64,000 nucleotides of DNA from assembly GCA_051599415.1 (NCBI GenBank), contig AP039695.1, forward strand, positions 124,001 through 188,000, given 5' to 3'. The notes under the pieces are model-generated. The model was not told where the DNA came from. It ran no database searches and saw nothing but the letters and a program-made list of their open reading frames with translations. Made by a program: the position numbers and the translations under genes. How positions within the stretch are numbered: position 1 is the stretch's first letter; every line of letters begins with the position of its first letter. Shown here in pieces: positions 9,494 to 59,536 of the stretch. Origin of the DNA: Savitreella phatthalungensis. Taxonomy: Eukaryota.

Positions 9494-9685
9494 ACCTGAG
9501 CAGCTGCCAGACAGAAAGACATCCAGCTCAGCATGATGAGAGGAGATCCACGAAGACATGTGATAGAGCAGAGTGTGATTTAGTGATGATTGATATTGCT
9601 CCACAGATAAATTAGATTTCCATATCAACTTTAATTGAATGTGGAGTAAATTGAAAATCAAATTCAACCCGCCTAGCCTAAGCAT

Positions 9686-9790
9686 AAATTCAAATTCAAA
9701 TTCAAATTCAAATTCAAATTCAAATTCAAATTCAAATTCAAATTCAAATTCAAATTCAAATTCAAATTCAAATTCAAATTCAAATTCAAA
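9686..9790. repeat. Perfect (AAATTC)17 microsatellite
   Basis: 17 perfect copies at 9686-9787 plus a partial unit. Confidence 0.97.
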
Positions 9791-9942
9791 GTGTGCAGAG
9801 TGGAGCAATTTTAGACGTACGTAAATTAACCGTATTTACTCGATCCAGATATTCAATCGATCATCACGTACGGATTTCAAGCAATCCGCCATGCATTTGA
9901 TCAATCAATCAGTCAATCAATCAATCAATCCAGCCACACATA

Positions 9943-10036
9943 TACTGTATACTATACTCTACTGTACTGTACTGTACTGTACTCTACTGTACTGTACTGT
10001 ACTCTACTGTACTATACTGTACTCTACTGTACTGTA
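9943..10036. repeat. Degenerate (CTGTA/CTCTA/CTATA)n pentanucleotide repeat
   Basis: tactgtatactatactctactgtactgtactgtact... read directly; preceded by (TCAA)n at ~9900-9930. Confidence 0.85.
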
Positions 10037-10627
10037 CGTGTATCACCAATCATCATCCTCATCAGCTTCTTCTATACTATACTGTAGATCATACATTACT
10101 GATCTCCAGACTATCCATCCACCCATTCAGATTCACCCACAGGTCATCATCCTCTTCACAACACAGACAGTACAGACAAGAAGCAGCTTCTGTCATCATC
10201 ATCATCACCATCTATCGTTTCGCCTCCACCCACTCACAAGCTTCTAAACAAGCTCCCACCACATCAACCTCACCTTTCCTTCTCTTCAACTCAAGCAGCT
10301 CCAGACCAGATCACAGCTGTACCACTCACCACCTCTTTCCCTTCCATTGCTCAACCTTCCCTCCTATTCGACCACATCTGTGTCTCCATTGACCGCCCAC
10401 ATCCACTGCTCGCTCAGAGACATTCTGAAGTTCTCGATTCTTTCATTTCCAAAGTCATCCTCATCTCTCATTCCTCTCCATCAAAAGCGGTCAGAAAGCT
10501 TGGCATCGCACTATCCTGATCAGCACTGAAACATCCTAAACCACCACGCTTCATCATCATCTTCTCAATTCCTGCCTCCAGCCTGGCAAAGTGAATTGCT
10601 CAACCTCACACGCCTACACCTACACAT

Positions 10628-13600
10628 ATGGAGACATCCACTTCGTCTTCAGCAGCCGATGCATCTGCCGCAGCAGCCTCACACAAGCTACAATTCGACC
10701 ACGATGCCACACCTGAGGAGAAAATGCGTCAAGCGATGAAGGACGTACCAGCTGGCCACAAAACCGAAAGGCGAAACAAAGGTACAGAACTCGTCACAGA
10801 GGCAGCTGCTGCCGCTGCACCAAAAGTCGAAGACCTTCCCCCACCAACGACTCAAGCCACCAAGACAGGCACTAGCTCGGCACAAGCGCTTGCTCTCCAG
10901 AAGGGCAATAAATCTGTCGTCGGCTGGCAGCAGGCAGGCGGTGCCACATCATCAGACTTCTGGAATGTCGATCGAGCAGATATAGATGGCAAGGTTGACC
11001 CAGACAATGTCAATGGCAGAGACCTCCGCACCCTGCTAGAAGACTATCTTCCACCCGGCACTTACGGAGACTGGTTCCATAATGCAGGCGTAATCGGTGC
11101 CACCGCGCTGTCGTGTTGGGTCGTAGGACGATTAGGAGGTGGTCTCGCCTGGATCGTCGTCATCGGCGCAATCCTTGGCACCTACTACCGCACCTCGATC
11201 AGAAGGACGCGCCGCAATGCACGAGACGACCTCACTCGTCTTCTCGCAAAACGTAAGCTTGAGCATGATTACGAGAGCGCAGAATGGATGAACAGCTTCC
11301 TCACCAAATTCTGGGTCATCTTCGAGCCTGAGCTTTCTGCTATGATTGTTGGCACGGTCGACCAGGTGCTTGCAACTTCAACGCCGGCATTCCTCGAGTC
11401 ACTCCGCCTGGATGAATTCACCCTCGGCACACAACCACCTCGCATCGAGCATGTCAAAACCTACCCAAAGTCAGAAGACGATGTCGTCATCATGGACTGG
11501 AAATTCGCCTTCACCCCAAATGATGTGCAAGATCTGACGATGCGACAGGTCAAGAACAAGGTCAACCCGCGTATCGTCCTCGGCATCCGTGTAGGGAAAT
11601 CCGTTGCTACGGCCAACATTCCGATTGTGGTTGAAGATATCGCTTGCGCAGGTCTCATGCAGGTCCGCATCAAGCTAATGTCGGAATTTCCCAATATCAA
11701 GATTGTCGATCTCTCTTTCCTCGAAAAGCCAGTGATTGACTACGTCCTCAAGCCTATTGGAGGCAAGACTCTGGGATTCGATGTTGGCTTCATCCCGGGA
11801 CTATCAGGCGCCATCCTCTCCATCATTCACGGGACGCTTGGGCCTATGATGTATGCACCCAACGTCTTTTCACTCAACGTTCAACAGATGCTCAGTGGCG
11901 CCCCGATCGATTCTGCAATTGGTGTCGCGGTAGTCACGATTCACTCTGCCGCTGGAGTCAAGAACCCAGATACACTCGGAGGCAAACCAGATCCTTATGT
12001 GAAGTTGTCGCTCGCCGGTCATGAAGTCGCCCGTACAACCACCATCAAGAGCACAAATGAGCCACAGTTCAACGAGGTCAAGACTGTCCTGATCACCACA
12101 CTCACAGACCCCCTCATCCTCGAAGTCCTTGACTTCAACGAGATTCGTGCCGATCGAGTCATGGGAGCTGTCTCATTCGACCTGCACGAGCTAGAAAATG
12201 ATCCGGAAGTCGATCACGTCAGCATGGATGTCATGAACAATGCAAAGCCTCGTGGTAACCTGAACTTCAGTATCTCCTGGTATCCAGTGTTGCAAGCGCC
12301 AAAGAATCCAGATGGCACGCCTGGACCCACGCCAGAATCCAGCAGTGGTATTGTGCGATTCACCGTGCACCAGGCGAAGAACATTGCCGGTGGCAAGAAT
12401 ATCTCAGCCTTCGCATCTCTTCTGCTCAATGCAAAAGAAGTCGCCAAGACTCCGAAGATGAAGAATACGCATAATCCGGTCTGGGACTTCTCAAAGGAAA
12501 TGCTTGTGACGGACAAAGACAAGTGTGTGCTCGGAGTCCAGCTGCGACATGACGATGACCGGCTCGGTTCGATGCAGATCAAATTGCTCGACCTACTCAA
12601 AAACACCGAGGACGAAGTGGACGAATACGCGTTACAAAATACACGTGAAGTCAATGGAAAGATCAAGCTTTCGGCTACATGGAAGCCTGTCGCTCTGGGC
12701 TCGCTCGGCTCTTCTGCGGCGTACGAGACCCCAATTGGCGCATTGCGCATTCACCTGCACGCAGCCAACGACCTCAAGGATCTTGATGTGGTCGGCAAGC
12801 CTGATCCGTACGTCTCCGTACTAGTCAACGGGAAGCGTAGCGGACGCACTGTCACCGTCAAGAACGAGTTCAATCCAGTCTGGAACGAGATCGTCTATGT
12901 CGCGGTGCGCAATCCGCGTGAGCGCATCAAGCTCGAGTGCATGGACTACCAGCAGCGTACTAAAGACAGATCGCTCGGCACGATTGATGTAGATCTGTCT
13001 CAGCTCGTCCGGCAGAATCCAGCTGGCTATTACGAAGAGTGCGATGATCGTACACCGCGAACGGCCATGTTCAAGCTCGGAAACGGCCAATCAAAGGGCA
13101 CCCTGAAGTATAGCATCAGCTTTCATCCAGCACTCAGTGTCTACACAACCGAGGAAGAGGAGAAGCTCGACAAGGAAGCAGCAGAACGCACTACCAATCC
13201 GGTTCTAGCGTCCCCAGTCTCAGCCGCACGGACATCATTCGATAATAAAGCTGCTGCTAATCCTGCAGTTGACCAACTCATCCAACAGGCTGCTCCTCGC
13301 CACAAGCGCAGCGAGTCAGTGCTCACGACGAGCACGACTTCTCGTGCACGAGCACTGGCTCCACCAAAGATGCGCCTTGCAGCTGCTGATCTCGGCAAGT
13401 ATCAATCCGGATTCCTGGTCGTCGACCTGCTCGAAGGAGACTTCGCTCACTCGGGTGCATACCTCCAGGTCTTCCTCGACGACTATCTCTACAGTAGCTA
13501 CAGCTCTGCAAAAGTGCGATCGAGGCATGTTCAGTGGAACAACGAGACCATGGATGTCTTTGTCCGCGAACTAGATCTTTCACAGATCCAGCTGCGCGTC

Positions 13601-15019
13601 AACGAATCGCACGAAAATACAAGCGACGCCGAGACGCTTGGAGAAGCAGCAGACTCCACCTTGAGTATCCTCAAGCGCTCATTTAACACTCCTATTACGA
13701 TAGCTCTACCAGGCAAGCACGGCGCATCTAAGCTCACCTTCAAGTCTCGCTGGATTCCTGTACCATTGCAACTGGACGCACGAGAGTCCGTCAATAACAT
13801 GGGCTCACTTCGTTTTGATCTTGTCAAGGCGACAGACTTGATCGGCATGGATCGCGGAGGCAAGTCATCGGACCCATACGCCAAATTTGTCCTCAATGGA
13901 GAGACTGTCTTCACCTCGCAAACCATCAAGAAGACGCTGAATCCACAGTGGAATGAGTCATTCGAGGTGGCCGTTCCGTCTCGCGTTGACGCTGATTTCG
14001 TCATCAATGTGTTCGACTGGGATCTAGGAGGTGGAGACGATCCCCTTGGCAGCGCTCGAATCCCGCTCGAGGCACTCGAGCCACTGACGTCAATGCCGAT
14101 CGAGCTCAAGCTGGAGGGTGTCAAGTCTGGTGTTGTGCACGGAAGAATGCTATTCCGGCCTGCATTTGTAACTCGTGCACGTCGAGGCACAACATCTCGA
14201 ACGATGACTTTGGCCACTGGCGTCGCAGGCGCTCCGATCAAGGCTGGTACTAAGGTTGTCGGTGGGGCACTCCACGGAGCCAAGCGCACTGGCAGCCTCG
14301 TCGGCCGCGGTCTCTTCGGCAGATCGAGCCACAAAGCTGCGCACGAAGACGCTCTGGCAGAAGACCAGCCACAGATCGCTGTCGGTCCAGACGGCACCAC
14401 CTACACGCATGATCCTGCGATCAACCTCGCAGGTATCGAGGGCACAGCTAGCACCAGTACACCGATCTCCTCCAGAGTCGCTGCTGCCATCGATTCTCCC
14501 GCAAACCAATCCTCCTCCTTCCTCGACACCGACCCGAACTCGTCCGTTGGCGGCGGGACCGGTGAGCTCGGTACGCTTTCGATCACATTCGGTTCTCCCG
14601 TTGGATTCCCCGACCTGTCGCACAAGGTCTCGATCAAGGTGAAGGGCACAAAGTTCAGCGACAAGACAGACGCGCACAAGCACATGTCCTCCTTTACCAA
14701 CACCACCCTTCGCGGCATTGCCGAGCTAGGAGAAACCCTCCAGATCACGCTCCGTGAATCCTCACTCCTAGGTTCAGACAAAACCCTCGGCAGAGCAACC
14801 CTCCAAATCCCATACACCCAATCCGCTCTCTCATCTGATAATCACACCATCTCCTTCGACGGCACCTTCAGTGGCAGCTCACTTCCTGTAACGCTGGGTT
14901 TCAAACCACTTGATGCAGCATCGACACGCACTGCCACTCGAAGATCACTTTTCGGCAGTGGCAGCGGTAGCGGTGGTGGCAGTGCTTCAGTCACACCTTC
15001 AAGGAAATCACTCGGTTAG
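10628..15019 (+). CDS. tcb: Tricalbin (extended synaptotagmin; ER-plasma membrane tether)
   Basis: N-terminal TM hairpin, SMP domain (ESAEWMNSFLTKFW, LDEFTLGTQPPRI) and multiple C2 domains (KPDPYV, SSDPYAKF, TIKKTLNPQWNESF). Confidence 0.93.
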   Translation: METSTSSSAADASAAAASHKLQFDHDATPEEKMRQAMKDVPAGHKTERRNKGTELVTEAAAAAAPKVEDLPPPTTQATKTGTSSAQALALQKGNKSVVGWQQAGGATSSDFWNVDRADIDGKVDPDNVNGRDLRTLLEDYLPPGTYGDWFHNAGVIGATALSCWVVGRLGGGLAWIVVIGAILGTYYRTSIRRTRRNARDDLTRLLAKRKLEHDYESAEWMNSFLTKFWVIFEPELSAMIVGTVDQVLATSTPAFLESLRLDEFTLGTQPPRIEHVKTYPKSEDDVVIMDWKFAFTPNDVQDLTMRQVKNKVNPRIVLGIRVGKSVATANIPIVVEDIACAGLMQVRIKLMSEFPNIKIVDLSFLEKPVIDYVLKPIGGKTLGFDVGFIPGLSGAILSIIHGTLGPMMYAPNVFSLNVQQMLSGAPIDSAIGVAVVTIHSAAGVKNPDTLGGKPDPYVKLSLAGHEVARTTTIKSTNEPQFNEVKTVLITTLTDPLILEVLDFNEIRADRVMGAVSFDLHELENDPEVDHVSMDVMNNAKPRGNLNFSISWYPVLQAPKNPDGTPGPTPESSSGIVRFTVHQAKNIAGGKNISAFASLLLNAKEVAKTPKMKNTHNPVWDFSKEMLVTDKDKCVLGVQLRHDDDRLGSMQIKLLDLLKNTEDEVDEYALQNTREVNGKIKLSATWKPVALGSLGSSAAYETPIGALRIHLHAANDLKDLDVVGKPDPYVSVLVNGKRSGRTVTVKNEFNPVWNEIVYVAVRNPRERIKLECMDYQQRTKDRSLGTIDVDLSQLVRQNPAGYYEECDDRTPRTAMFKLGNGQSKGTLKYSISFHPALSVYTTEEEEKLDKEAAERTTNPVLASPVSAARTSFDNKAAANPAVDQLIQQAAPRHKRSESVLTTSTTSRARALAPPKMRLAAADLGKYQSGFLVVDLLEGDFAHSGAYLQVFLDDYLYSSYSSAKVRSRHVQWNNETMDVFVRELDLSQIQLRVNESHENTSDAETLGEAADSTLSILKRSFNTPITIALPGKHGASKLTFKSRWIPVPLQLDARESVNNMGSLRFDLVKATDLIGMDRGGKSSDPYAKFVLNGETVFTSQTIKKTLNPQWNESFEVAVPSRVDADFVINVFDWDLGGGDDPLGSARIPLEALEPLTSMPIELKLEGVKSGVVHGRMLFRPAFVTRARRGTTSRTMTLATGVAGAPIKAGTKVVGGALHGAKRTGSLVGRGLFGRSSHKAAHEDALAEDQPQIAVGPDGTTYTHDPAINLAGIEGTASTSTPISSRVAAAIDSPANQSSSFLDTDPNSSVGGGTGELGTLSITFGSPVGFPDLSHKVSIKVKGTKFSDKTDAHKHMSSFTNTTLRGIAELGETLQITLRESSLLGSDKTLGRATLQIPYTQSALSSDNHTISFDGTFSGSSLPVTLGFKPLDAASTRTATRRSLFGSGSGSGGGSASVTPSRKSLG

Positions 15020-15178
15020 CTGACTCAGGTCGTCTCATGCATCGCATCCTTATACGTCTAATGAATAATCTCTATCCCCCTCAAAAGCCAAGTTTAAAAA
15101 AGAAGAGAAGTTTGATTATAAGCTATGTCGTGATTCGTATCGGGGTAATGCTAAATGCTATGTAGTTGTTGCGTGATA

Positions 15179-16245
15179 GTCGTTCGTGAGGTTTGGGTCG
15201 AAGAGGAAGAGAGTGATTTTGAAGAGATCAAGGAAAGAGAGAGAGAGAGAGAGAGATCGGATTCGGTTTCTTTGGTAATCAACTGCACTGTCCAGGACCC
15301 ACTGGATGACAGAGCTCCTTTATCCGGTGGACGATCCCTCAAGTCACTTTAAGGATGGGGAAAGTCCAAACCGCCTAGGCGCTGTACCGAAAGGAAACCT
15401 TTCGTCACGCTCTCTCTCTCCATCCCTCGCACTCCCCGTCGCTCTTCCTGTCTTCAAAGTACCGTCCTGCTAGCTGTTAGTACTCGGAGTTCGGTTTCTT
15501 GGGTGTCGAAGCGATTGGTGGTTGCCCGTGGTCGGACCTCTATAAGAAGACACACGATGCGGTGGCTTAGAGCGATGACGATCTAGCAGGTCAGTAGGAT
15601 GGTTGGACGCGGAGTATGGAAGTCCGCCTTCGGTAGACGAGGAGGAGGACGAGCTGAAGGAGTTAGTGTGAGGGAGGATTCAAGAGCAGTAAGAAGGAAA
15701 AGGTGGCGACCGATCGACGAAGGTGGTTAGAGGCATGGGAAGAGGTTGGGAGAGGAGAGAAGAGAAAAAACCTTCGGGCATGGCAGATATCCAGGACCTC
15801 TGGACCGCCAGGACTCCTGCAGACAAACTCACCCTCAAGTCCCGACAGGTATGGGGTGGCTCGTCCGAGCAGGCGCCGATCTCCCCTGTGAATTCTCTCT
15901 TTCTCTCGCTCTCTTTCTCTCTTCTTCCGCCTCGCCAACCCATCGAAAAGCTCGCGTTCCTCTGGCCCCCTAGCGTCTCGTCTCCCCCACAGTTCACACC
16001 CCAGTCAAGCCTCCACTCTCCACCGATCAGAAGCTCATCCAGTACTCTCGCGCCACTACCAATTCCACTGATGCCAATAAACGCCTCACTTGGTGTTTGG
16101 CAGCCGTGTTTCGCGCATCGTGTGCTCTGCTAGAGGTCAGTAGGATTGATCGGGATTCCGCCAGTAGTGTCGCTGCGGTCGAAGCGTCGATGTGTTGTTG
16201 TATTTTGTTGGCACTCTTTCCCTTCCACCCTCTCTCACGAACAGA
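15179..16245 (-). other. Highly structured RNA domain 3' of the orphan ORF (putative 3' UTR or embedded ncRNA)
   Basis: Nested inverted repeats: 15182-15190/16234-16242, 15205-15215/16212-16221, 15218-15225/15451-15458, 15466-15473/15583-15590 and ~15592-15620/~16038-16070. Contains two homologous internal modules. Confidence 0.6.
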
Positions 16246-16256
16246 CAGGAGGCCAA

Positions 16257-17573
16257 TTAGGCCTTGTGGACGATCTGGTTCTCTGCAGAGGCAGATCCCC
16301 AGTCGAAGACGACGTCGGTCATCTTGCCATTGAACGAGTCGTAAGAGAAGACCTGGTACTTGGGCTTAGGCTGTCCGCCGAGGGTGAGGAGGTTGGTGCG
16401 TGCAGCTGCGTCGATCATGTCTGTGCGACGGCCCTTGTTGCGGATGAAGTCCGAGATCGGGCGGCGGCTGTTGCGAGAGGGCGTGCAGCAGTAGCCGAAA
16501 AGGGGCTCACGGAACTCGTTGTCCTCGTCGTCAGCGTCAACGAAGGAGTCGCTGCCAGCCTCGCGAAGGTGCAGACGGAGCTTGGCGATCTCAGAGCCAG
16601 CGGCGGCCTTGTGCTGGAGACGCTGAAGGGCAAGGTCACGGTTCAGAGGACCGTTAGCGGCAGTGTAGAGCTCGAACTGCTCATCGTTGGCGTAGACAAT
16701 GGGGTCGATGACCTCCTGAGTCGCCTCGTCAGCGACCTCAGGGATATCGCCGTAGACAGATGCATCGTCGTCGACAATCTCCTCCTCTTGTGCCTCCTCA
16801 GCGATAGAGAGGACAGACAGGGACTGCTCGAGCAGCTTCGAGTTGAGCTCTGCGGCAAAGGAGGTCTCTGCCTTCAGAGACTCTTCGTCCTGCTCCTGAA
16901 GAGGCTCCTCGATAGGTGTGGTGGCGGCAGTCTCGAAGAGAGGCGAAGGCTGACCGGCAGTGGTAGGCGAAGCAGTACCGACATTGTCAGTACCGAGCTC
17001 GACCTCGAGGTCGTCGAGGATGTTGGAGCGCGATGCACCCCACTCGGACTCTTCGCGTAGTGAGAAGAGCGAACCGTTGTAGGCAACGGTGAGCTCGGAA
17101 AGGGGAAGGACGTCGGCGACGCGGATCCTCTTGACAGGCGAGGCAATGGTGTTGTTGAAGGCAGAGGTGTTGAAGAAAGAGCTCGCAGCGGTGACGTTGG
17201 CCTCCTCTTCAACCGGAGTCTGCTCGGAGTTGCAGAGCTGGACGTTCTTGAGTCCTGCGTAGTGCTCCGGAGCGCCCAGAGACTTTGCGGTTCCGGGAAT
17301 CATGTACATGTTGCGGGCCTTGAGATCCTTGTGGAGCTTCTTGTCAGCCTTCTTTAGGGCCTTTGCCTCCTTCTTGGCCTTCTTCTCAGCGCAGGTGGCA
17401 AAGCGAATGGCTCCGCAGGAGGCGTTGGAGATGGTCTGCTTAACCTCAGCGACAGCAAACTCACGAGCAAGCTCGCGCTCCCAGCTGCGCTTGCTGAAGA
17501 GAGAGAAGGGCTTGGGGGCCGGGGCCGAGGCCGAGGCAGAGAAAGTGGTGGTGTTCTTGTTGAAGAAAGACAT
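16257..17573 (-). CDS. Orphan protein, 438 aa (Lys-rich N-terminal helix, acidic centre, basic C-terminus)
   Basis: Long ORF with strong codon bias (AAG/GAG/AAC/TTC/GCC) and an A/C-rich leader ending ...cttacaaccATG. No family recognised. Confidence 0.75.
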   Translation of the reverse strand: MSFFNKNTTTFSASASAPAPKPFSLFSKRSWERELAREFAVAEVKQTISNASCGAIRFATCAEKKAKKEAKALKKADKKLHKDLKARNMYMIPGTAKSLGAPEHYAGLKNVQLCNSEQTPVEEEANVTAASSFFNTSAFNNTIASPVKRIRVADVLPLSELTVAYNGSLFSLREESEWGASRSNILDDLEVELGTDNVGTASPTTAGQPSPLFETAATTPIEEPLQEQDEESLKAETSFAAELNSKLLEQSLSVLSIAEEAQEEEIVDDDASVYGDIPEVADEATQEVIDPIVYANDEQFELYTAANGPLNRDLALQRLQHKAAAGSEIAKLRLHLREAGSDSFVDADDEDNEFREPLFGYCCTPSRNSRRPISDFIRNKGRRTDMIDAAARTNLLTLGGQPKPKYQVFSYDSFNGKMTDVVFDWGSASAENQIVHKA

Positions 17574-17654
17574 GGTTGTAAGAGTAGTTGAAGAGACTTA
17601 AAAAGTGTTGTAAAAGAGCTGAAGCTAGACGAGACTGCTTGAGTGTGTACTTGC

Positions 17655-18996
17655 CTGTTGGGATGTTAGTTGCCTGACTCGAAAGGGAAACAACACCCGT
17701 CCGCATCGCAATGGCCTCGCCGACGACGCTAGGGCCCTCGTCCTCGCTCATGACAGGAGCAGCATACGCTACTCCCGCCAGAGCGAGGACGGAGGACCAC
17801 CAGCATCGAGGGCTTGACTCGGTCAACGAGCTCATCCCCCTGATCTCTGCCACAAGGACAGAGGGGAGGACAAGCTCGCGGCCTTGACGGACGACGCCTG
17901 CGCGCGCCTCCACAAGGGTCAGAGGGAGCAGAGAAAGCGAAGAATTCGAGCATTTGCTCTATTCCCCGACATTTCCACTCCCTCCTCGTCTTGAGGAGGG
18001 TTGCTCAGACGCCGCCGGCAAGGCCAAGTCGAGCTCGAAATTTTGGCATGCCCTGCCGTCGCCGAGGCTCACGCTACGTCTCTCCCCCACGAATGTGGGA
18101 AAGAGATCGCAGCGCTCGCCTCGGCAACGTCAGGCACTGCCGTGCGGATTGTCTCGGGTCCGACCTTTACCATAGACAGACGTGCATGAAGGGTTTTTCA
18201 CCGAGGGGCAAGTCTCGGCCCGAGTACGAGGGAGGAAAAATGACCACGTCTGGGACGCCCGTTAAGGACAGTATCCCAGACAACTAGTTACTCTCTCCGT
18301 TGAAGGAGAGAGTCTAGGGATCATAGTTCCTTTCGACTCGGGGCTCTGACGAGCCCCTCGAAACCCTCAGCACGCCCGTCAGGCAAAGGTCGGTCGAGAC
18401 CCGCACGGCAACTCGAAGCGCGACGACGCAAGAAGAGACGGTTGGGGCGAATCCGCGGGCAGACCACGACTCGTCCCATCGACCTTCCCCTATGAAGGGA
18501 GAAGGGACGGAACGAACGCGGTCTGCCCTCCCACCTGACTACCCGACCCTCGTGAAGAAGGTAGGTAATCAGACGGTGTGGACTCCCCTCCCGCTGCAGG
18601 TCCGTCCCTTCAGGACTCCAGTCGCCCTCCTACCCGAGTACCTGACCACGTCGCCCTCATACAGAGAGGCAGACGTGAGATAGGCAACTTCTCGGGTCGA
18701 AAGAGACGAACAGGAGTCGCGTGAAGGGGAGAGGACCCACATTGGGAGGGACCGACTCATGCGTCGCCGGCAACGAGGCCGACGAGCCCGACTCGACCGA
18801 TCTCGCACGACGACAACTGGTACCACAAACACCCCTTTACACATTTGACGGCTAGGACTCTCGTTATGAGAATGCCCTAGACAACCAAGAGACAATCCGT
18901 TGAGGAAAGCTCTGGCGTCAAGTGTGTAGAGTGTTTGAGGACCAGCGCCGTCGGCGAGGCCGACGAGCGGTGAGTGTTGTCGAGAGGGATCCTTAC
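17655..18996 (-). other. Putative 1342-nt highly structured 5'-UTR spliceosomal intron (or structured leader)
   Basis: Minus strand: GTAAGG at 18996, ACTAAC branch at 17670-17665, CAG ending 17655. A long-range stem 17713-17730/18944-18961 plus 17690-17696/18974-18980 joins the ends, and the interior is filled with hairpins. Confidence 0.55.
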
Positions 18997-19031
18997 AAAG
19001 AAGGTGAGGATCGAGTATGGGCTGAAGGTTG

Positions 19032-20031
19032 CTTATATCCTTTCGTCGGCCAGGTCGAGAACTCGATTGACCTAGCCGATAATTCCATTGACCTAGCCGA
19101 CAATGTCATTGCCTTCGGCTATGTGTGATGGTGGTGATTTGCAGAAAAGACGTTGTCTTTTTGCAATTCCGTGTGTCCTAAAGCGTGCTGTCGGCCTGTG
19201 ACTGGACGATGTGAAGTGCACGACGAGCCGATGTGCAAAAGTACACCATAAGTAAGAGGTGTACAATTCCACCAAATCCTTCATACATGATCGATATCAT
19301 CATGTAGCTAGAGTCATCCTGAGTCGTATGCGACTACTCTCGCGGTCATCAGCCTCTTGTACGCCGAGCTATAGCGGGTGAAGTGGAATGGAGGTGTCGT
19401 GTGGACATGTTTTCGTGACGTTACATGAAGATGTTGAGCAAATGATCAATGTGATCTGAGCTCAATTGAGTATGAATTGAGTCTGATTCAGGTGTGATAT
19501 TGTGATTTTGTATCAATTCACCCCCAAATAGTTTGATTCACTTTTAGCGATGCACGTGAATATATGCAATTGATCAATTGACCGTTGACCAATCAATGGA
19601 TGTACCATTGGCGTGGCTGGTCATTGAGACTTTCTCAAATCTCTGCAAAGCGCTGATCCTTCTGACGCAATGGCAACCGTTGACGGTACACGGCAACCGT
19701 CAAAGTTTATCGTAGATTATCCATTGTATTCCTTCGGCTGAGTCGTTACCATCAGCAACGGGTAGCCGAGTGATTGTCAACAGTCTCAAGAGGCGTCTCG
19801 GCTAGCATCCCATACCCGTATAGCCTTCATATTGACCGATGTGCTCGGCGATATTAGTATGAAATTGATCGTCAGACCGAGCTTGACCACCGTAGCGAGT
19901 ATGACTGTCTCTCGCCCACTGAGCGTATGGCTGGACCGTTTGGGAAGCTAGCCGAAGGCGTCTGGTCGCGAAGCTTGTGATCGCGTGAAAGGCCGGAGAA
20001 TTTCAATTAAGCTCGGCTGAAAGCTCGGCTA
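19032..20031 (-). promoter_or_regulatory. Putative promoter: TATA-like ATATAAG plus cluster of TAGCCGA motifs
   Basis: cttatat at 19032-19038. TAGCCGA/TCGGCTA at 19073, 19094, 19115, 19763, 19798, 19949 and 20025. ATTGACCTAGCCGA direct repeat at 19066 and 19087. Confidence 0.55.
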
Positions 20032-21240
20032 TCGGAGAATTAAATCGAGTGGCTGTGCTGTGGCGCAGTTCCGCGCTCAATTCTGGAGATATGTCGTTCG
20101 TGGTCACGATGACGCCGGTGGAACGCATACTTCGAGCGTCGATTGCTCTCTCGCCGTCGCTCTAGAGTGGTTCGTGTAGCTGCAGTGTGATCGGGACAAT
20201 TGGCGCTATCGAATGGTATCGGTATCGCTGTGCTGGCACGGCCGCAGCAGGCCTAGTGGATTACTCCCCCATGTTGTCGCATGCTGACAACATCCATGTA
20301 CAAGCTGACGTCGCACGACTTAGCTTCGAAAGTGATGCTTCATGGGTCGCTTGTGACGTGTGTTGAAAGGGCGACTGGTCCCGAGGGTATTCAGGCCGAT
20401 TAAGCTGGTTATGATCATCCTGTCGGCGACTCTGGCGTGGTTCGTAGAAGAATCCGAGCGAATACAAAGCCATGCTTATCTCCGAGCACGTCTCGATGGA
20501 CACACATCGCTCTAGTACATGCTCGACACGTTCCGAAGGTCGCAGCGATGATGATCAGTTCATTGATAACTCCATCATGTCAACACTATGTTATTCACGA
20601 TTGAGACCTGTTGATGTGTTCGATTCTGACGAACTGGTCCCCTGGTCGGATATCATGCACCCAGCCTATCGAACCACACTCTCGGATACCAGCACAGTGT
20701 GCAAGGAGTGTGTGCAGAAGACATTCGGTCACAGAGGATTGACATGCCGCCGGTAGATCTGCAACGAGAACTTATTGCCACCCGGACGATTTGCTGTCGA
20801 TCACTATCATTGTGGAGCCATGGCCACCCTGACGACGAATCCAAAAAAAATTGTGGCTGTCAGCCACATTGATCACATGTCAATCCCACTGAGGGCGCAT
20901 GCAAACGTGCGCGACCAAGTCAGATGGTCACACCTTATCACTTCACCTTCCCCTGCAGACAGCTCACGACGGGTGCAACGCGACATCGTATGTGGATGCT
21001 GTCTGGACGCTCACGTATCCGTCTCACGCACACCGAGTCCACTTACGTGGTCTCGACTAAAACATGCTGCACGAATCTGCTCGAAGCGGGTTGTCGGGAT
21101 GTTTTAATTTCATACAATCATGGTTATGGTACACTCAGCGCCAATCTGCGGGTCTGCACTGTCTGTGTTTGTAGGCTGGCACTCGATCCGGTCTGAGCCG
21201 ACGGAGTTCTCGAATTGAAAGGTCGCCAAGCGTGAATCGA

Positions 21241-22800
21241 TCATAGAGATTGCTGCTCAAAGGCGATGTTGTCGATAATGAATTGGGAGTTGCCATTAGC
21301 TCCATTCTTGCAGCCGTAGGCGAACTTTAGCATTCCTGAGACGGTAGGAGAAGGGGGCACAAAAAGCTTGCCACTGTAATTCCAGTCGAAGGTGGTGCTC
21401 AGATCTGTCTGCTTGAAGCGCCTCGAAAAGATTTGGTTGTCTGCCCATGTGACGTTCAGGTCGCAATACTGGTACGACACAAGGTACTTGAGTGCGTAGT
21501 AGAAACTGCAAGTAAATCCAGCTGCGAGGGTCGGGTCATAGATATCCTGCTGGACATAGGCCACACGATTACCGAGATTAGAGGTAAACTGCATCAATAC
21601 GTACCTCGAGCCATCTTCCGCGACACTTGCGTCGATCGGAGCCACCACAAAGGGGACGCCAGCAGAAGACCACTCGACCGGGAAAGTATTGACGCCTTCT
21701 TCGAACGAAGGGTTACGCAAGGGCTTCACTGTCCTAGGGACCGCCGTTGCCACAACCTGAACAACTGAAGTTGCAGTCGACACAAGGGTTGTCGTGGTCG
21801 TTGATGTCCCAAATGTGGTGAGCTCGGCGGTGGATGTGGTAGCCGAGGAGACAGTCAAGGTCGTAAGAAGCGTGATCGTGGTAGTTCGAGTTGTCGTCAC
21901 GGTGGAAGTGCTCGTGTCCGTCCGGGCGAAAGTTGACAGGGCGATCGATGGAATGACAATGGTGACTGTCGGACGCGCGAGTGTTGTTGTCGTGGTTGTT
22001 GTCGATGTGAGCGTGTAGCAGCCGGTCGGTGCAACGACAGGCAAGGAGGATGCAGGAGAGCTCGGAGGAGCCAGCCGTTTGACGAGAGGAGTCGCCGCCG
22101 TCGAAGTTATCGTCGTTGTCGAAAGCGCGATCTGCGTTGAGAGAGCAGTGACCGTTGAGACGACAGTCCTTGTGACAACTCGTATGACGACGAAATTAGC
22201 GATTCTTGAAGCGATCACCGTGTTGTACGCTGTAGACTCCGAGACAGCCTGGGAGGTTGCCACAGAGATCGTCGTCGCAGTCGAAGTGGGGAGACTCGAG
22301 GAAACGGAAGTGGTGAAGACCGTGGACGCGGTCGGCGTGACTGTGACCGTGCTGGTCGTTGTTGTTCTCACTGGTTCGAACGTTGTGAGACGTACTGTCG
22401 GCGTTGTTGTGACCGTGGCGGCTGCGGCCAAACAGCTACAGGCGCGAGAGAGAGCGCTTGTGCCAAGTGCTGTCATGTACTTCGGACACAGCGGACCTGC
22501 TGAGCGAGCAGCCCTGTTCTCGAGCTCGCGTTTGCTCAAGGTGGCAGATGCGGCGGGCAGCGTTGCGAAACATCGACCGCGTACAGTCGACGTGACAGCC
22601 GCTGCAGTGATAGTCTTCTGTGAGGCGGAAATGAACGCGCTGCAGAAGGCTGAAGCGGTGGAGGGCTCGGTGGACGGTTGAAGGGCAACGATACTCTGCA
22701 CAAGATCGCATCGTGAGCTTGCAACGGCTGCAGACATACTGCCAGCCGTGTCGAGGGTCGCCACGGCCGCGACGCAGGCCAACACACCGAGCAGGAACAT
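21241..22800 (-). CDS. Secreted Ser/Thr-rich protein with C-terminal CBM/galactose-binding-like domain (copy 1)
   Basis: ATG at 22800 gives signal peptide MFLLGVLACVAAVA. Cys motifs AFCSAF and RACSCL, KR (Kex2-like) sites, a Thr-rich stalk, and LRNPSFE opening a beta-rich domain. Confidence 0.8.
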   Translation of the reverse strand: MFLLGVLACVAAVATLDTAGSMSAAVASSRCDLVQSIVALQPSTEPSTASAFCSAFISASQKTITAAAVTSTVRGRCFATLPAASATLSKRELENRAARSAGPLCPKYMTALGTSALSRACSCLAAAATVTTTPTVRLTTFEPVRTTTTSTVTVTPTASTVFTTSVSSSLPTSTATTISVATSQAVSESTAYNTVIASRIANFVVIRVVTRTVVSTVTALSTQIALSTTTITSTAATPLVKRLAPPSSPASSLPVVAPTGCYTLTSTTTTTTTLARPTVTIVIPSIALSTFARTDTSTSTVTTTRTTTITLLTTLTVSSATTSTAELTTFGTSTTTTTLVSTATSVVQVVATAVPRTVKPLRNPSFEEGVNTFPVEWSSAGVPFVVAPIDASVAEDGSRYVLMQFTSNLGNRVAYVQQDIYDPTLAAGFTCSFYYALKYLVSYQYCDLNVTWADNQIFSRRFKQTDLSTTFDWNYSGKLFVPPSPTVSGMLKFAYGCKNGANGNSQFIIDNIAFEQQSL

Positions 22801-28748: not shown

Positions 28749-30678
28749 ATATAAAGTCGAAACACGTAAAATTGATCACCTTTAACTTCGCGCAGAAAAT
28801 AAAGACGCGTCGAACACGTCACCACCTGCCTTCAGAGCAGCCTACTGCCTCCTACAGCGCCTATGGACGCATTATATCGCGAGGCATGCCTCCAGGCAGC
28901 CTTGAACCACTACGCTGCTCGAAGAGACGGCCAGAAACCGTCAATTCGTGATGCTGCAGCAGAGTATAGCGTTTCACCCAGCACTTTGAGGCATCGGCTA
29001 CTGAACGGCAATAGGACTGCCTCAGAGGCTGCCAGAGAGCGCCAAAAGCTGACAGAATCACAGGAGAAGGCTCTGGTAGACATGCTGCACAGAAGGTCTG
29101 CAGTAGGCTATCCTATGACTCCTGGGGAGGTCACTAGCCTAGCAGACAAATTTTTCGAAGCTCGCGGCAGCACAGTGCACCTCGGAATGCGCTGGTTTCC
29201 TTCCTTCAAATTACGCCATCCTGACATCCACACAGTGCGCAGCAATTGCATCGACCACAGCCGCATGTACGCGGTGGATTCAGCCACTGTGGAAGCCTAT
29301 TTCAAGATCCTAGGCACCTATCTTCGAGAGGAAGCAATCCTGCCTGAGGATGTGTGGAATGCTGACAAATCTGGCCTCATGATGGGCCGTTCCCAGTCCT
29401 CCCAGGTGGTGGTCCCACTGCTGCAGAAGGGTAAGAAGCGCGCTGTGGCAGCAGACAATGGAGATCGCGAAACAGTCAGCTGTATGGCCTGTGTTTCTGC
29501 TGCAGGTGCCCATTTACAACCAGTTCTGGTGTTCAGGCGCACTCAGGCGAAGAGGGAGGCCTGTGGAAAGGCTGTGGAGGCTGGGCTGGCGCCTCCTGAC
29601 AAGGCAAAGTACCTAGGCACGCCTGGAAACGCTGTACGCGTGTTTCACTCGAAAAACGGCTTCCTCACGTCCCAGTTAATCGTCCAGTGGCTACAGGAGG
29701 TCTTCCTGCCTGCCACAGCACGAGATCCACCGAGGACGCGCGTCCTAGTGATCAATGGCGCCTGCGCTCACGCCACGCACGAGGTCATGTATGAATGCGC
29801 GAAAAATGGCGTCAAACTGGTTTATCTGCCTGCCCACAGCTCCCACCTCACACAGCCGCTCGACCTAGCCGTATTCTCGCCTTTGAAGAACTACTATGGG
29901 CAGGCAGTGAAGGTACTCAGCCGCAGGCTAGCTGGCAGACCCTGGGGGCGCAAAGAATTCATCTCGATCTTTCTCGGCGCCTGGCAGAAGGCGCTGAACC
30001 GCCAGAACATCACCTCAGGCTTCAGGCAAGGCGGTATCTGGCCCTATGACCCACAGGCGGTGCGCCGAAGCGTGCTCTCTTACAACAATTCAGTCGAATC
30101 TGCCTCGGAAGCTGCGAAAAGGCCAGAAAGGCCTGCCTTGGCCACCCTGACCACCAATGCAGCCAATACACTGCCTAAAACAGTCAAAGCGACACGCGCG
30201 ACACTGCAGGCAGCTGGAAAAGAGAGATACGAGGTGCTAGAGCTAGCACTTGCAGAGAATGCGCAAAAAGATCGCCTCATCGAGGAACTGAGAACTGCTG
30301 CAGAGCAGCACCAGTTCATGATCGCCGATAGGGACGAGACTATAGCAGCCCTGCAGGCCAAGGCCTCGCGTCCTAGGGCAGCCTTCAAGGCACAGCAGCT
30401 GGCTAGAGGAGTGGACTGGCTAAAAGGCTTACTCGGCGAAGACTACACAGATATGAGGTGGCACTGGATCGCAGCGAAGGCGAGGGCTGCTAAAATCGAG
30501 CCTAGAGCATGGATAGAGGCACAGGACCAGGCTACCTTACTTTCAGAGCTAGCGCTGGTGATTCCATCGAATAGCGAGCAATCTACGGAGAAGGTGCCTT
30601 CGAAGAGGCGACAAAAAAAACGTGTGTGAAATTGATTAATCTTAAAGGTGATCAATTCTAGGTGTAGCGACTTTATAT
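28749..30678 (+). mobile_element. pogo/Fot1-like (Tc1-mariner superfamily) DNA transposon with ~37-bp TIRs
   Basis: Left ATATAAAGTCGAAACACGTAAAATTGATCACCTTTAA (28749-28785) versus reverse complement of right 30642-30678 ATATAAAGTCGCTACACCTAGAATTGATCACCTTTAA (4 mismatches). Ends lie in TA dinucleotides and enclose a transposase ORF. Confidence 0.92.
28863..30629 (+). CDS. pogo/Fot1-type transposase (HTH_psq + CENP-B/Tc5 HTH + DDE_1), catalytic motif altered
   Basis: SIRDAAAEYSVSPSTLRHRL, QKLTESQEKALV, LGMRWFPSFKLRHP, VWNADKSG, VLVINGACAH and LPAHSSHLTQPLDLAVFSPLK. Confidence 0.9.
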   Translation: MDALYREACLQAALNHYAARRDGQKPSIRDAAAEYSVSPSTLRHRLLNGNRTASEAARERQKLTESQEKALVDMLHRRSAVGYPMTPGEVTSLADKFFEARGSTVHLGMRWFPSFKLRHPDIHTVRSNCIDHSRMYAVDSATVEAYFKILGTYLREEAILPEDVWNADKSGLMMGRSQSSQVVVPLLQKGKKRAVAADNGDRETVSCMACVSAAGAHLQPVLVFRRTQAKREACGKAVEAGLAPPDKAKYLGTPGNAVRVFHSKNGFLTSQLIVQWLQEVFLPATARDPPRTRVLVINGACAHATHEVMYECAKNGVKLVYLPAHSSHLTQPLDLAVFSPLKNYYGQAVKVLSRRLAGRPWGRKEFISIFLGAWQKALNRQNITSGFRQGGIWPYDPQAVRRSVLSYNNSVESASEAAKRPERPALATLTTNAANTLPKTVKATRATLQAAGKERYEVLELALAENAQKDRLIEELRTAAEQHQFMIADRDETIAALQAKASRPRAAFKAQQLARGVDWLKGLLGEDYTDMRWHWIAAKARAAKIEPRAWIEAQDQATLLSELALVIPSNSEQSTEKVPSKRRQKKRV

Positions 30679-57701: not shown

Positions 57702-59429
57702 TTGGAGCGAGTGGTTGAGTTTGGTGGAAAGATTCAAAGCAGCGATCGCAACAGGTGGAGCAGGAAGGGTCTGTGATCGAGTGTAGAGCGGAGTTTGAGT
57801 ATTTTGACAGTTCTCAGATTGGCAATTCAATAAAATCGACCGCGAAAAATTAGACGACGTCATTGATGCACGTGAATCTATCAAAAAACTCTGTCTGAAT
57901 GCACAAACATGAGTATATTCTACAGAGTAGGAATCCAAGAGGGAAAACGGGCGAGAACAATCACGCTGCAGCCATTGATGGCCCTTCAGAGTCACTCTCG
58001 TCAGACAGAATTCATCTGTTGCTGATCATCGGACGACCGAGAGCGGGTGGCTGCAGCGATGAAGGTGTCTCTAATGGCTCAGAGGGTAGAACCTCACAGG
58101 GTTTGCGTAGTGAAGATGAGCGCGGTCTGTTCATCAGCCAGTGAATTCGCAGTTTCATCAAGCACAAGGGCTCAAGGACATATGGAGCATGAAGCTCTTT
58201 GGAGACATCTGGTCAATGCTTGACTGCTAATGATGGATTGATTCCGGGCAGATTGATGGCAAGCTCTTCATTATCTGCACGTGCATGTAAATCACTCGTT
58301 CATCCAGTCATTCTCTTTTCTTTGAAGCCAGATGCACACATAGAGTATCGCTACTGCGAAACATACAGAGTATTGCTACTGCCAGGGACATAGAGTAATG
58401 CTTACTGCTCTGGCAGTGCTAAGCTCGATCTCTTGACCATGTACAAGACAGAGAGAGATATGGTCCAATTGGACTTTTGTCCCCAACATTGATGCAGATC
58501 TTATGATCCTGACTGAGCATTGCCGGGTGAAGCCACTTGGCGACTCATACGGGTATCCCAGATGAATCTATTTCTGAAAATAAGCGTAAAACTTCTCGTC
58601 TCAATTTGGCAGAGCTGATCTACGCTTTCCTCGCATGGTTCAATTTGAGATCCCGCACCTAGATCGAAACTGTCCAATTAAAACAGTGGAAAGACGTCGC
58701 AAGAGAAATCGAGGGTATGAATAGAGTCTACAATTGATAACTCTGTACCTAATTCTACAGGGTCCATCTAGCTAGAATATCAAGATGAAACAAAATTTGG
58801 TTGGAAGGATTGATGGGAAAGTGACTGTATCTAGATTGAGCAAACTGTTCACTCTGCACAACCATAAGTCTATGCCATACGCTTCACTGTTTACAGCCTA
58901 TTCAATTTTCCCTCTGCGGCTAAAGTATCAAGCGGTATCTGGAGGGAGTAAAAATACTTGTAGCCCTCGGTGGGTCATGCTCAGGCAGGTGTCACTGTCG
59001 CTAGAACGGGTAGAAATAGATTTGAATCAAGTCTGAACTGAAATTGGAAATAAATAGTCTTGAGACTCGTACACTGTTACTCGTGAGAAGCCATTTAGCC
59101 AGCTCGAGTGGGATTAGATCTTTAACAGAGCGTGATGAACTGAGGATTGAATTGACGTGGAAGAGACCTGAGGTATACGCCTGTCCAGTCACAAGAGCCA
59201 AGAAATCAGCCAGTAAATGGAAGCAGTCAGTCAGGCAATCAGGCAATTAGGCATCAGGCAATCAGGCAGTCTACCTTCTCCTGCTTTACACTCTACAATT
59301 TAAACCAGACCCGCCCAACAAAATCATCTCAAAAAATCTCTCCTCTCTTCCTTTTCCCCTTTTGTCCCTCATCTATTCCTCAACCTCTTTTGATCAGACC
59401 AAGTACAGCTGTCCTGGAAGCACTCAGAG

Positions 59430-59536
59430 TCAGAGGTAGACAGACAGTGAGCAAGAGAGACAGAGAGAGATATAGAGAGCAAGAGACAGAGAGAGAGAGC
59501 GAGAGGAAGAGGTAGACAGAGAGGCAGAGAGAGACA
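59430..59536. repeat. Degenerate (GA)n tract in the HMG-CoA reductase upstream region
   Basis: agagagacagagagagatatagagagc... following a CT-rich tract at ~59335-59390. Confidence 0.7.

What the first reader, a model, noticed from the sequence alone, without database searches (positions are those of the whole stretch)
15285..15880. Duplicated unrecognised RNA motif at the tips of two long 3' arms
Seen: module A and module B share, in the same order, TCCAGGACC(CA/T)CTGGA hairpin (15291-15306; 15790-15804), CTCCT, CCCTCAAGTC (15336-15345; 15832-15841), exactly 9 nt, ATGGGG (15355; 15851), GTCC and AGGCGC (15377; 15871). Intervening stem sequence differs but still pairs. Each module is flanked by a GA-rich arm and a TC-rich arm that pair. 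On the sense (minus) strand the conserved loop GGUC could pair with the conserved GACU of the neighbouring hairpin (kissing loop or pseudoknot). Conserved loops with variable stems suggest a functional tertiary motif such as a protein-binding, localisation or self-cleaving element (inference). I could not match it to hammerhead, HDV, hairpin, VS or TPP consensus.
Basis: partly seen in the sequence, partly recalled or inferred. Interest (0 to 1): 0.78.

Follow-up and report, generated by a model that had tools for sequence, protein, structure and literature searches.

The report
Duplicated Y-shaped cap in structured 3' flank
Two copies of a roughly 100-base, two-hairpin motif cap the two arms of a 1.07-kb self-pairing non-coding stretch just downstream of an orphan yeast gene; it matches no known RNA family and looks structurally conserved, but only one genome and no RNA data could be examined.

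Summary
All the listed motifs occur at the stated coordinates, in the same order, and only twice in 64 kb. The two modules are the tips of two hairpin arms. A 30-bp trunk (15179-15215 with 16212-16246) closes both arms into one branched fold. This fold fills the gap between the stop codon of the 438-aa ORF and the only AT-rich, terminator-like zone. It is far more stable than shuffled sequence on the minus strand (z -8.5 and -7.5) and less so on the plus strand (z -3.3 and -3.5).

The arms arose by an internal ~500-bp duplication. Compensatory changes exist, but some depend on the alignment.

No Rfam family, ribozyme core, snoRNA box, tRNA or TTAGGG-type telomerase template matches. I found no homologues in metagenome, viral or prokaryote collections. 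No RNA run and no relative's genome was available.

Best reading (0.45): a structured 3'-UTR domain of the minus-strand transcript, with duplicated three-way-junction caps. Neutral decay and a foldback DNA element remain live rivals. An even more extreme structured island lies upstream of the same gene.

The parts
15283..15383 (-). Module A core: short hairpin H1 (15283-15312, loop GACCCA on +, UGGGUC on -) plus long hairpin H2 (15313-15383)
15781..15877 (-). Module B core: H1 (15781-15810) plus H2 (15811-15877), homologous to module A
15221..15447 (-). Arm A: base stem 15221-15283 pairs with 15381-15447 (52 bp, GA/TC-rich) and carries module A at its tip
15507..16177 (-). Arm B: 15507-15780 pairs with 15882-16177 (about 200 bp, imperfect) and carries module B at its tip
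   Evidence: the cofold gain is -76 kcal/mol against -38 +/- 6 for block-shuffled partners
15179..15215 (-). Trunk, 3' strand in the minus sense; pairs with 16212-16246
16212..16246 (-). Trunk, 5' strand in the minus sense; begins 10 nt after the ORF438 stop codon (16257-16259)
15455..15501 (-). Small hairpin between the two arms
16130..16146 (-). Minus strand reads AUCCUACUGACCUCUAG, a composite like a branch point plus 3' splice site. Its paralogue is at 15583-15600. Further ACTAAC..YAG copies are at 15654-15672 and 15470-15486.
   Evidence: 4 of the window's 12 such motifs lie in this 1.1 kb, all on the minus strand
15050..15170 (.). Only AT-rich zone (GC 32-37%) between the two convergent ORFs; the likely shared terminator region (inference)
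16257..17573 (-). ORF438: an orphan protein-coding gene with the strongest codon-usage signal in the window and no Pfam family
10628..15019 (+). Convergent neighbour: tricalbin-like protein with C2 and SMP domains
17689..18981 (-). Context: a 1.29-kb trunk-closed, almost fully paired structural island upstream of ORF438 on the same strand

Best explanation
The two motif sets are paralogous three-way-junction caps. Read on the minus strand, each is: base stem, long hairpin H2, short hairpin H1, base stem. They sit at the tips of two arms of one ~1.07-kb, trunk-closed, branched RNA fold (15179-16246). That fold forms the 3' untranslated part of the minus-strand ORF438 transcript. The second arm arose by an internal duplication of about 500 nt, and both caps have been kept in shape since.

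Proposed working (inferred, not shown): the domain acts in cis on this mRNA. The long imperfect duplexes and the two caps would offer binding surfaces for double-strand-RNA-binding or junction-binding proteins. The four motifs resembling a branch point plus 3' splice site on the same strand would engage splicing factors. Together these would control 3'-end processing, decay, or release of a stable RNA fragment.

Shown here: the motifs, the duplication, the fold and its strand preference, and the enrichment of conservation in paired positions. Inferred: transcription, strand, and any function.
For: 1. The fold is specific. Minus-strand MFE is -438.0 kcal/mol, against -376.9 +/- 7.2 for 40 dinucleotide shuffles (z -8.5) and -363.5 +/- 9.9 for 35 shuffles confined to 25-nt blocks (z -7.5). 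The plus strand reaches only z -3.3 and -3.5. Two control intergenic stretches of the same length gave z -0.2 and +0.55, and -3.7 and -1.6.
2. The two sides of arm B pair specifically: the cofold gain is -76 kcal/mol against a null of -38 +/- 6.4.
3. The anatomy fits a 3' UTR. The trunk starts 10 nt after the stop codon, leaving no room for a separate promoter. It ends just before the only AT-rich zone, 15050-15170. That zone directly follows the tricalbin-like stop, so the plus-strand mRNA probably ends before module A.
4. Structure is conserved between the copies. Using each copy's own MFE, paired positions are identical at 45 of 64 and unpaired at 14 of 37 (Fisher p 0.0018 for A; p 0.009 for B, where unpaired is 14 of 33). 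Of A's 32 pairs, 21 are unchanged, 5 changed on both sides and still pair, 2 are broken and 4 lie in indels. RNAalifold on a structure-blind MAFFT alignment also reports the U-A to A-U switch.
5. ACT[AG]AC-N2-12-YAG occurs 12 times in 128 kb of both strands. Four of these lie on the minus strand of this 1.1 kb.
6. The region has no coding potential (LLR at most 0.02 per codon, against 0.26-0.28 in ORF438).
7. The other flank of the same gene carries a far stronger, strand-specific structure on the same strand. This makes RNA-level structure at this locus more credible.
Against: - No RNA evidence exists: none of the 7 listed runs is on record as RNA.
- Only two copies from one genome could be compared, so covariation has almost no power. 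Two of the five double changes (H1 lower stem) depend on my structure-guided register; under MAFFT's register they become one wobble and one broken pair.
- The module cores do not agree on a strand. Core A folds better on plus (-36.5 against -32.6 kcal/mol) and core B on minus (-48.7 against -35.2). Two conserved wobble pairs in H2 exist only on the plus strand.
- G-U pairs outnumber A-C mismatches in this domain on both strands (33:4 on minus, 41:9 on plus), so this test does not pick a strand.
- GA and TC tracts pair promiscuously: A's GA tract matches B's TC tract at 92% (I1).
- Near-identical strains differ by 2-5% in this region and by 1-1.6% in the ORF, so the region is not unusually conserved. 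Seven of 8 substitutions fall at positions unpaired in the minus MFE, but that test is partly circular.
- No homologue was found anywhere.
Confidence: 0.45

Rival explanations
1. A neutral, decaying tandem duplication of about 500 bp of hairpin-prone, low-complexity intergenic DNA. The shared motifs would be what has not yet mutated, and the fold a by-product of GA and TC tracts plus the duplication of a palindromic unit.
For: - Colinear blocks extend beyond the modules at offsets of 496-562 bp.
- There are only two copies, with no hits elsewhere.
- Runs of 9-10 identical bases are not rare at the 71% mean column identity of the MAFFT alignment.
- The compensatory evidence depends on the alignment.
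- Duplicating a hairpin automatically allows pairing between the two copies.
Against: - The surviving blocks are complementary to one another, and identity is 70% at paired against 38% at unpaired positions. Random decay does not predict this.
- The fold beats shuffles that keep local composition by 7.5 sd on the minus strand.
- Arm B's two sides gain twice the energy of composition-matched nulls.
- A trunk closes the domain exactly between the stop codon and the terminator zone.
Confidence: 0.2
2. One or more non-autonomous foldback or MITE-like DNA elements inserted behind ORF438. The trunk and arms would be terminal and subterminal inverted repeats, and the two modules two copies of one hairpin-forming element.
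For: - The element is closed by a ~35-bp inverted repeat and built of long inverted repeats.
- DNA transposons exist in this genome: a pogo-like DDE_1 ORF at 28863-30629 has 37-bp inverted repeats.
- A palindromic element folds on both strands, as this one does.
Against: - I saw no target-site duplication at the trunk ends (read).
- The trunk is unrelated to the pogo-like repeats.
- There is no other copy in 64 kb.
- The minus strand folds markedly better than the plus strand.
- Copy number in the rest of the genome could not be checked, because no genome is held.
Confidence: 0.15
3. The functional strand is the plus strand: a read-through 3' UTR of the tricalbin-like gene, or a separate plus-strand non-coding RNA.
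For: - Module A folds better on plus (z -2.2 against +0.3).
- The conserved CCCU/GGGG and GU/AU contacts use G-U pairs that exist only on plus.
- AG|GTCAGTA also reads as a 5' splice site on plus.
- AATAAA occurs at 16076 on plus.
Against: - The whole-domain z is only -3.3 and -3.5 on plus, within the range of a control region.
- The AT-rich zone lies between the tricalbin-like stop and module A.
- The conserved CTAG next to the 13-mer is explained only by the minus-strand reading.
- Module B folds much better on minus.
Confidence: 0.08
4. A stable non-coding RNA cut out of the 3' UTR, such as a telomerase RNA. On the minus strand the caps have the order P5-P6-P6.1 of the CR4/5 three-way junction. 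A telomerase RNA lying beside, and transcribed from the start site of, a protein-gene locus is described in Ustilago maydis.
For: - Minus-strand order is base stem, long hairpin, then a short 5-bp hairpin with a G-rich 5-6-nt loop.
- The size of ~1.07 kb is in the range of fungal telomerase RNAs.
- The Ustilago paper reports the ter1 transcription start within a protein-gene locus, a P6.1-like hairpin and an internal 90-bp duplication (PMC10035886; passages and section 19 read).
- Splice-like signals are used for 3'-end formation of fission-yeast telomerase RNA (recalled, not read here).
Against: - Apart from a 9-mer at 52375 inside an ORF, the 64 kb holds no stretch of 8 nt or more of the TTAGGG repeat or its complement.
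- No Sm-like site on the minus strand.
- Two junction domains would be unusual.
- This organism's telomere repeat is unknown, so the template test is incomplete.
Confidence: 0.04

Closest known systems
Conserved structured elements in fungal mRNA 3' UTRs and introns (Gao, Jones and Rivas 2021, PMC8216456; abstract and passages read)
   Same: Non-coding structure attached to a protein-coding transcript, single-copy locus, function mostly unknown, thought to bind a protein in cis.
   Different: The listed structures are 48-170 nt long and are backed by covariation across many genomes. This domain is ~1.07 kb with two ~100-nt caps, is known from one genome only, and gives no Rfam 15 match.
CR4/5 (P5-P6-P6.1) three-way junction of vertebrate and fungal telomerase RNA
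   Same: On the minus strand: a base stem, then a long hairpin, then a short hairpin with a small G-rich loop, inside a large fungal RNA next to a protein gene (PMC10035886).
   Different: There is no TTAGGG-type template and no Sm site, and there are two junctions instead of one. The loops UGGGUC and AGGUC are only loosely like the P6.1 sequence AAGAGTTGGGCTCTG quoted in PMC10035886.
SRP RNA Alu domain (two hairpins with pairing loops capping a long helix); resemblance recalled, not tested
   Same: A long helix capped by two adjacent hairpins whose apical loops carry complementary tetranucleotides (GGUC and GACU).
   Different: No SRP family hit in Rfam. Hairpin order and sizes differ. The loop-loop contact is only a possibility.
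Self-complementary segments in long yeast introns, and palindromic hairpin loci that yield small RNAs in budding yeasts (both recalled, not read here)
   Same: Long-range trunks that bring distant parts of a transcript together, and long imperfect hairpins in intron-poor yeast genomes.
   Different: No RNA, small-RNA or splicing data exist for this organism. The duplexes here are imperfect (about 68% of arm nucleotides paired) and capped by conserved junctions.
MITE and foldback DNA transposons
   Same: Inverted repeats at the ends and hairpin-forming internal sequence.
   Different: No target-site duplication was seen, there is no second copy in the window, and folding is strand-asymmetric.

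Membership tests
Small self-cleaving ribozymes (hammerhead, HDV-like, hairpin, VS, twister, pistol, hatchet) | Match to the family covariance model, or the conserved catalytic core (for hammerhead: CUGANGA and GAAA junction strands) | tested here: not met
   The Rfam E-value search of 14000-17500 returned only 3 unrelated matches at E 0.44-8.5. The gathering search of the whole window returned 0. CTGANGA is absent from both strands. H1 and H2 abut without a junction strand.
Telomerase RNA | Template of about 1.5 telomere repeats | tested here: inconclusive
   No match of 8 nt or more to (TTAGGG)n in the region. The organism's own telomere repeat is unknown.
Telomerase RNA | Three-way junction with a P6.1-like short hairpin; Sm site or other 3'-end element | tested here: inconclusive
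   The junction order fits on the minus strand. No Sm-like site on minus. The similarity of the loops is loose.
Box C/D and H/ACA snoRNAs | C box RUGAUGA with D box CUGA; or hairpin-hinge-hairpin with H and ACA boxes | tested here: not met
   No RTGATGA on either strand. No conserved ACA 3 nt from a hairpin end in both modules (read). No Rfam snoRNA hit above noise.
tRNA or tRNA-like element | Cloverleaf recognised by ARAGORN | tested here: not met
   0 genes in the window.
Spliceosomal intron(s) on the minus strand | 5' splice site, branch point and 3' splice site at workable spacing, and spliced reads | tested here: inconclusive
   Four ACTRAC-N2-12-YAG composites lie on minus. Candidate 5' sites are at 16242/16238, 15832 and 15555. 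There are no RNA reads to show use. The same 13-mer also reads as a 5' splice site on plus.
MITE or foldback transposon | Terminal inverted repeats, target-site duplication, many copies per genome | tested here: inconclusive
   An inverted-repeat trunk is present. No duplication is visible at its ends. One locus only in 64 kb. Genome-wide copy number is not testable because no genome is held.
Structured cis-element of an mRNA 3' UTR | Lies within the transcript's 3' UTR; structure conserved by selection | tested here: inconclusive
   The position fits: it starts 10 nt after the stop and ends before the AT-rich zone. Paralogue comparison favours conserved pairing. Transcript ends and orthologues are unavailable.

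The most novel reading that the evidence does not exclude
ORF438 would be the core of a previously undescribed gene architecture in a Taphrinales-like yeast: an orphan, strongly codon-biased ORF flanked on the same strand by two giant trunk-closed RNA domains. One is a 1.29-kb, almost fully paired island upstream (z about -23, with 60 G-U pairs against 6 A-C mismatches on the minus strand). The other is this 1.07-kb branched domain downstream. The recurring building block would be a long arm capped by two hairpins, and the duplicated module with complementary GGUC and GACU loops would be the conserved, protein-binding or kissing-loop version of that block. The domains would be processed (by splicing factors or RNase III-type enzymes) into stable structured RNAs, or would govern the expression of the mRNA.
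Probability: 0.25. Interest if true: 0.75.

Novelty: new variant of a known kind. Interest (0 to 1): 0.5.

Why it matters
If the fold is a real RNA, this would be an unusually large structured 3'-UTR domain in a fungus. The structures listed in the fungal screen I read are 48-170 nt; this one is about 1.07 kb. Its internal duplication lets structure conservation be read within a single genome.

Together with the extreme structural island upstream of the same gene, it marks a locus where RNA structure, rather than protein coding, appears to be the main constraint on more than 2 kb of sequence. The lineage, Taphrinales-like yeasts, is very poorly sampled. A covariance model built once orthologues are available could define a new RNA family.

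If instead it is neutral duplication or a foldback element, it is ordinary.

Tried and rejected
- Rfam. The E-value search of 14000-17500, the gathering search of the whole window and the E-value search of 17500-21300 gave only sub-threshold chance matches.
- tRNA scan: none.
- Own genome: none is held, so genome-wide copy number is unknown.
- Sequencing runs: 7 listed, no RNA holder listed.
- Laying four DNA runs: this gave only a few short, near-identical contigs (95-99% alike; X6 also two 42-nt pieces with 7-8 mismatches) covering parts of the stretch. One run (X7) laid nothing.
- Metagenome scan for CCAGGACC..CTGG..CCCTCAAGTC: 13 loci. None carries ATGGGG 9 nt downstream or GA/TC arms, so all are chance matches.
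- Viral contigs: 0 matches.
- Prokaryote genomes: 15 matches, none with CTCCT upstream or AGGCGC downstream, and mostly coding sequence.
- Earlier notes of this scan: nothing relevant.
- ORF438 homologues. The word-based search found only the query itself. The exhaustive search found one relative, a Savitreella phatthalungensis hypothetical protein. No Pfam family even at E 5. This gives no hint that the protein binds RNA.
- Protein Atlas on a neighbouring deacetylase gave no usable taxonomy.
- Covariance model: not built. The MAFFT alignment of two sequences misregisters two stems, and only the window, already searched by nhmmer, would have been available to search.
- RIP-type mutation as the source of G-U pairs: the U of G-U pairs is followed by A in 8 of 59 cases in the island and 3 of 33 in the domain, similar to background.
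- Coding potential: none in any open frame of the region.
- Literature. 'Savitreella' and 'Taphrinomycotina, hairpin, non-coding RNA, secondary structure' returned nothing describing such elements. I read only the listings, apart from PMC8216456.

Full report
SETTING. The window is nuclear DNA of an intron-poor fungus, with long uninterrupted ORFs of ordinary eukaryotic families. The finding lies in the 1237-bp gap between two convergent genes. One is a tricalbin-like C2/SMP protein on the plus strand (10628-15019). The other is a 438-aa ORF on the minus strand (16257-17573). ORF438 has no Pfam family, even at E 5. It has the best codon-usage score in the window (0.263 per codon, GC3 0.75), and that score holds to its last 100 codons, so it is a genuine host gene. 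In an exhaustive search of 1.84 billion representative proteins it has a single relative, a hypothetical protein of Savitreella phatthalungensis (Taphrinales). Identity is 60% over the last 57 residues. From this I infer that the organism is a Taphrinales-like yeast. No whole genome is held for the window.

The two composite motifs each occur exactly twice in 64 kb, with 0 and 0.01 matches expected. Each module is bracketed by a purine tract and a pyrimidine tract that pair. The similarity is not confined to the modules. Colinear blocks continue about 300 nt to the right of each, including an exact 13-mer at 15588 and 16134. The two ~550-nt units align far better than shuffles (122.5 against 69 +/- 9).

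WHAT THE MODULES ARE PART OF. Folding 15170-16260 gives one closed, branched structure:
- a trunk of 30 bp (16246-16212 with 15179-15215);
- arm A (15447-15381 with 15221-15283), tipped by module A;
- a small hairpin (15501-15455);
- a very long arm B (16177-15882 with 15507-15780, about 200 bp), tipped by module B.

On the minus strand the MFE is -438 kcal/mol, which is 8.5 sd below dinucleotide shuffles. It is still 7.5 sd below shuffles confined to 25-nt blocks, which keep the purine and pyrimidine tracts in place. The plus strand reaches only -3.3 and -3.5 sd. Control intergenic stretches of equal length gave -0.2 and +0.55, and -3.7 and -1.6. Only the minus-strand value is therefore clearly outside the background. 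The two sides of arm B gain -76 kcal/mol by pairing with each other, twice the gain of composition-matched nulls. The complementarity is real and is not just GA pairing with TC.

POSITION. In the minus sense, the trunk begins 10 nt after the ORF438 stop codon. It ends just before the only AT-rich zone between the two genes (15050-15170, GC 32-37%), which directly follows the tricalbin-like stop. There is no room for a separate promoter between ORF438 and the domain. The plus-strand mRNA most likely ends before module A. I infer from this that the domain is the 3' UTR of the ORF438 transcript. None of its open frames has coding character.

STRUCTURE OF A MODULE. Folded independently, both cores give a short hairpin H1 (5-bp stem TCCAG/CTGGA, 5-6-nt loop, a lower stem of 3-4 bp) directly followed by a long hairpin H2. 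H2 is built of CCU/AGG, GAC/GUC and CCCU/GGGG helices, a 3-nt bulge and an apical loop. With the arm as the third helix, each tip is a three-way junction.

The shared blocks are mostly the two strands of the same helices. Taking each copy's own predicted pairs, paired positions are identical in 45 of 64 cases and unpaired ones in 14 of 37 (A, p 0.0018) or 14 of 33 (B, p 0.009). Of A's 32 pairs, 21 are unchanged, 5 have changed on both sides and still pair, 2 are broken and 4 fall in indels.

Two cautions apply. My alignment was guided by structure. Two of the five double changes (H1 lower stem) turn into one wobble and one broken pair under MAFFT's register. The U-A to A-U switch in H2 is also seen by RNAalifold on the blind alignment. 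With two sequences this is suggestive, not proof. Still, a neutral decay that has taken the loops to near-random identity would not be expected to spare precisely the mutually complementary blocks.

On the minus strand, the conserved GGUC of the H1 loop and GACU of the H2 loop are predicted unpaired in both modules. They could form four pairs. It is permitted by the data, weak in energy (-2.1 kcal/mol) and untested.

STRAND. Evidence for minus:
- the whole-domain z-scores;
- the position relative to the stop codon and the AT-rich zone;
- module B (-48.7 against -35.2 kcal/mol);
- the better loop-loop complement;
- the 13-mer, which with its conserved flanking CTAG reads AUCCUACUGACCU(G)CUAG, a composite of branch point and 3' splice site.

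Such composites (ACT[AG]AC, 2-12 nt, YAG) occur 12 times in both strands of the window. Four of them are on the minus strand of this 1.1 kb, and a fifth lies 80 nt upstream of the ORF438 start.

Evidence for plus:
- module A (-36.5 against -32.6 kcal/mol);
- two conserved G-U pairs in H2 that are C-A mismatches on minus;
- the same 13-mer also reads AG|GUCAGUA, a 5' splice site.

G-U against A-C counts do not discriminate in this domain. I put minus ahead, but not decisively.

WHAT IT IS NOT. There is no Rfam family at any threshold tried, no tRNA, and no C box, hammerhead core or minus-strand Sm site. On the minus strand the junction has the order base stem, long hairpin, short hairpin, as in the CR4/5 domain of telomerase RNA. 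A paper on Ustilago (PMC10035886; passages and section 19 read) describes a telomerase RNA beside a protein gene with a P6.1-like hairpin and an internal repeat. Here, however, no stretch of 8 nt or more of the TTAGGG repeat or its complement exists in the region. I rate this reading at 0.04, with the caveat that the organism's telomere repeat is unknown.

SEARCH FOR RELATIVES. A strict two-motif pattern found 13 metagenome loci, and an H2 pattern found 0 viral and 15 prokaryotic loci. None has the remaining motifs or the arms, and their number is about what chance predicts. The nearest tricalbin relative in the protein collection is only 52% identical. Close relatives of this yeast are thus essentially absent from what I could reach. 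DNA runs that hold parts of the stretch are near-identical strains. Their 8 substitutions in the covered parts are mostly at positions unpaired in the minus fold (7 of 8), and three of them turn an A-C mismatch into a pair. That test is partly circular and I count it as weak. No RNA run was listed.

CONTEXT THAT CHANGES THE ODDS. Upstream of ORF438, on the same strand, 17689-18981 folds into a second trunk-closed, multibranched structure in which almost every base is paired. Its energy is -815 kcal/mol for 1301 nt on minus and -677 on plus, both about 23 sd below block shuffles. It is the single outlier of a sliding scan of the whole window. On minus it has 60 G-U pairs against 6 A-C mismatches; on plus it has 19 against 31. 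There is no CpA-to-TpA context that would indicate RIP. That asymmetry is what selection on an RNA of minus sense would produce. Several of its arms are also capped by two hairpins. It has a GTAAGG 15 nt before its trunk, and ACTAAC-N10-CAG about 20 nt after it. It could therefore be a large structured 5'-UTR intron, but I could not test this. Its presence makes an RNA-level reading of the 3' domain more plausible than it would be in isolation.

VERDICT. The motif is real, duplicated, structurally coherent and unassigned, but the evidence for function rests on two paralogues in one genome.

Best explanation (0.45): duplicated three-way-junction caps of a structured 3'-UTR domain of the ORF438 transcript, acting in cis through protein or splicing-factor binding.

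Rivals:
- neutral decaying duplication (0.20);
- foldback or MITE-like DNA (0.15);
- a plus-strand RNA (0.08);
- a telomerase-like processed RNA (0.04).

Noticed in passing
window 17689-18981 (minus strand): A 1.29-kb trunk-closed, almost fully base-paired structural island just upstream of ORF438. MFE is -815 kcal/mol on minus and -677 on plus, z about -23 on both. It has 60 G-U pairs against 6 A-C mismatches on minus, and 19 against 31 on plus. There is no Rfam hit and no RIP context. It is by far the strongest structure signal in the 64 kb.
   Followed up: partly
window 18991-18996 and 17655-17674 (minus strand): GTAAGG lies 15 nt before the island's trunk, and AACTAAC-N8-CAG about 20 nt after it, 80 nt upstream of the ORF438 ATG. 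The island could be a ~1.34-kb self-zipping 5'-UTR intron. A TATAAG lies about 41 nt upstream of the GTAAGG.
   Followed up: partly
window 15470-16146 (minus strand): A cluster of four motifs resembling a branch point plus 3' splice site (ACT[AG]AC-N2-12-YAG) within 700 nt. Only 8 others occur in the remaining ~127 kb of both strands.
   Followed up: partly
window 28749-30678: A pogo/Tc5-like DDE_1 transposase ORF (28863-30629, +) flanked by 37-bp inverted repeats (89% complementary): an apparently intact DNA transposon.
   Followed up: partly
window 59335-59516: Another pyrimidine-tract and purine-tract pair, in the opposite order on the plus strand, in the 3.7-kb gap upstream of the HMG-CoA reductase gene. 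It contains CCAGGAC on the minus strand but none of the other module motifs.
   Followed up: partly
window 17574-21240: A 3.6-kb stretch without any long ORF upstream of ORF438. Apart from the island, it includes an AT-rich part (about 19100-19700) and a 21-bp tandem pair at 19056-19097.
   Followed up: no
window 9601-10050 (minus strand): An AT-rich stretch (GC 0.30-0.36) upstream of the tricalbin-like gene folds much better on minus than on plus (-79.5 against -39.2 kcal/mol per 300 nt), making it the second-ranked outlier of the sliding scan.
   Followed up: no
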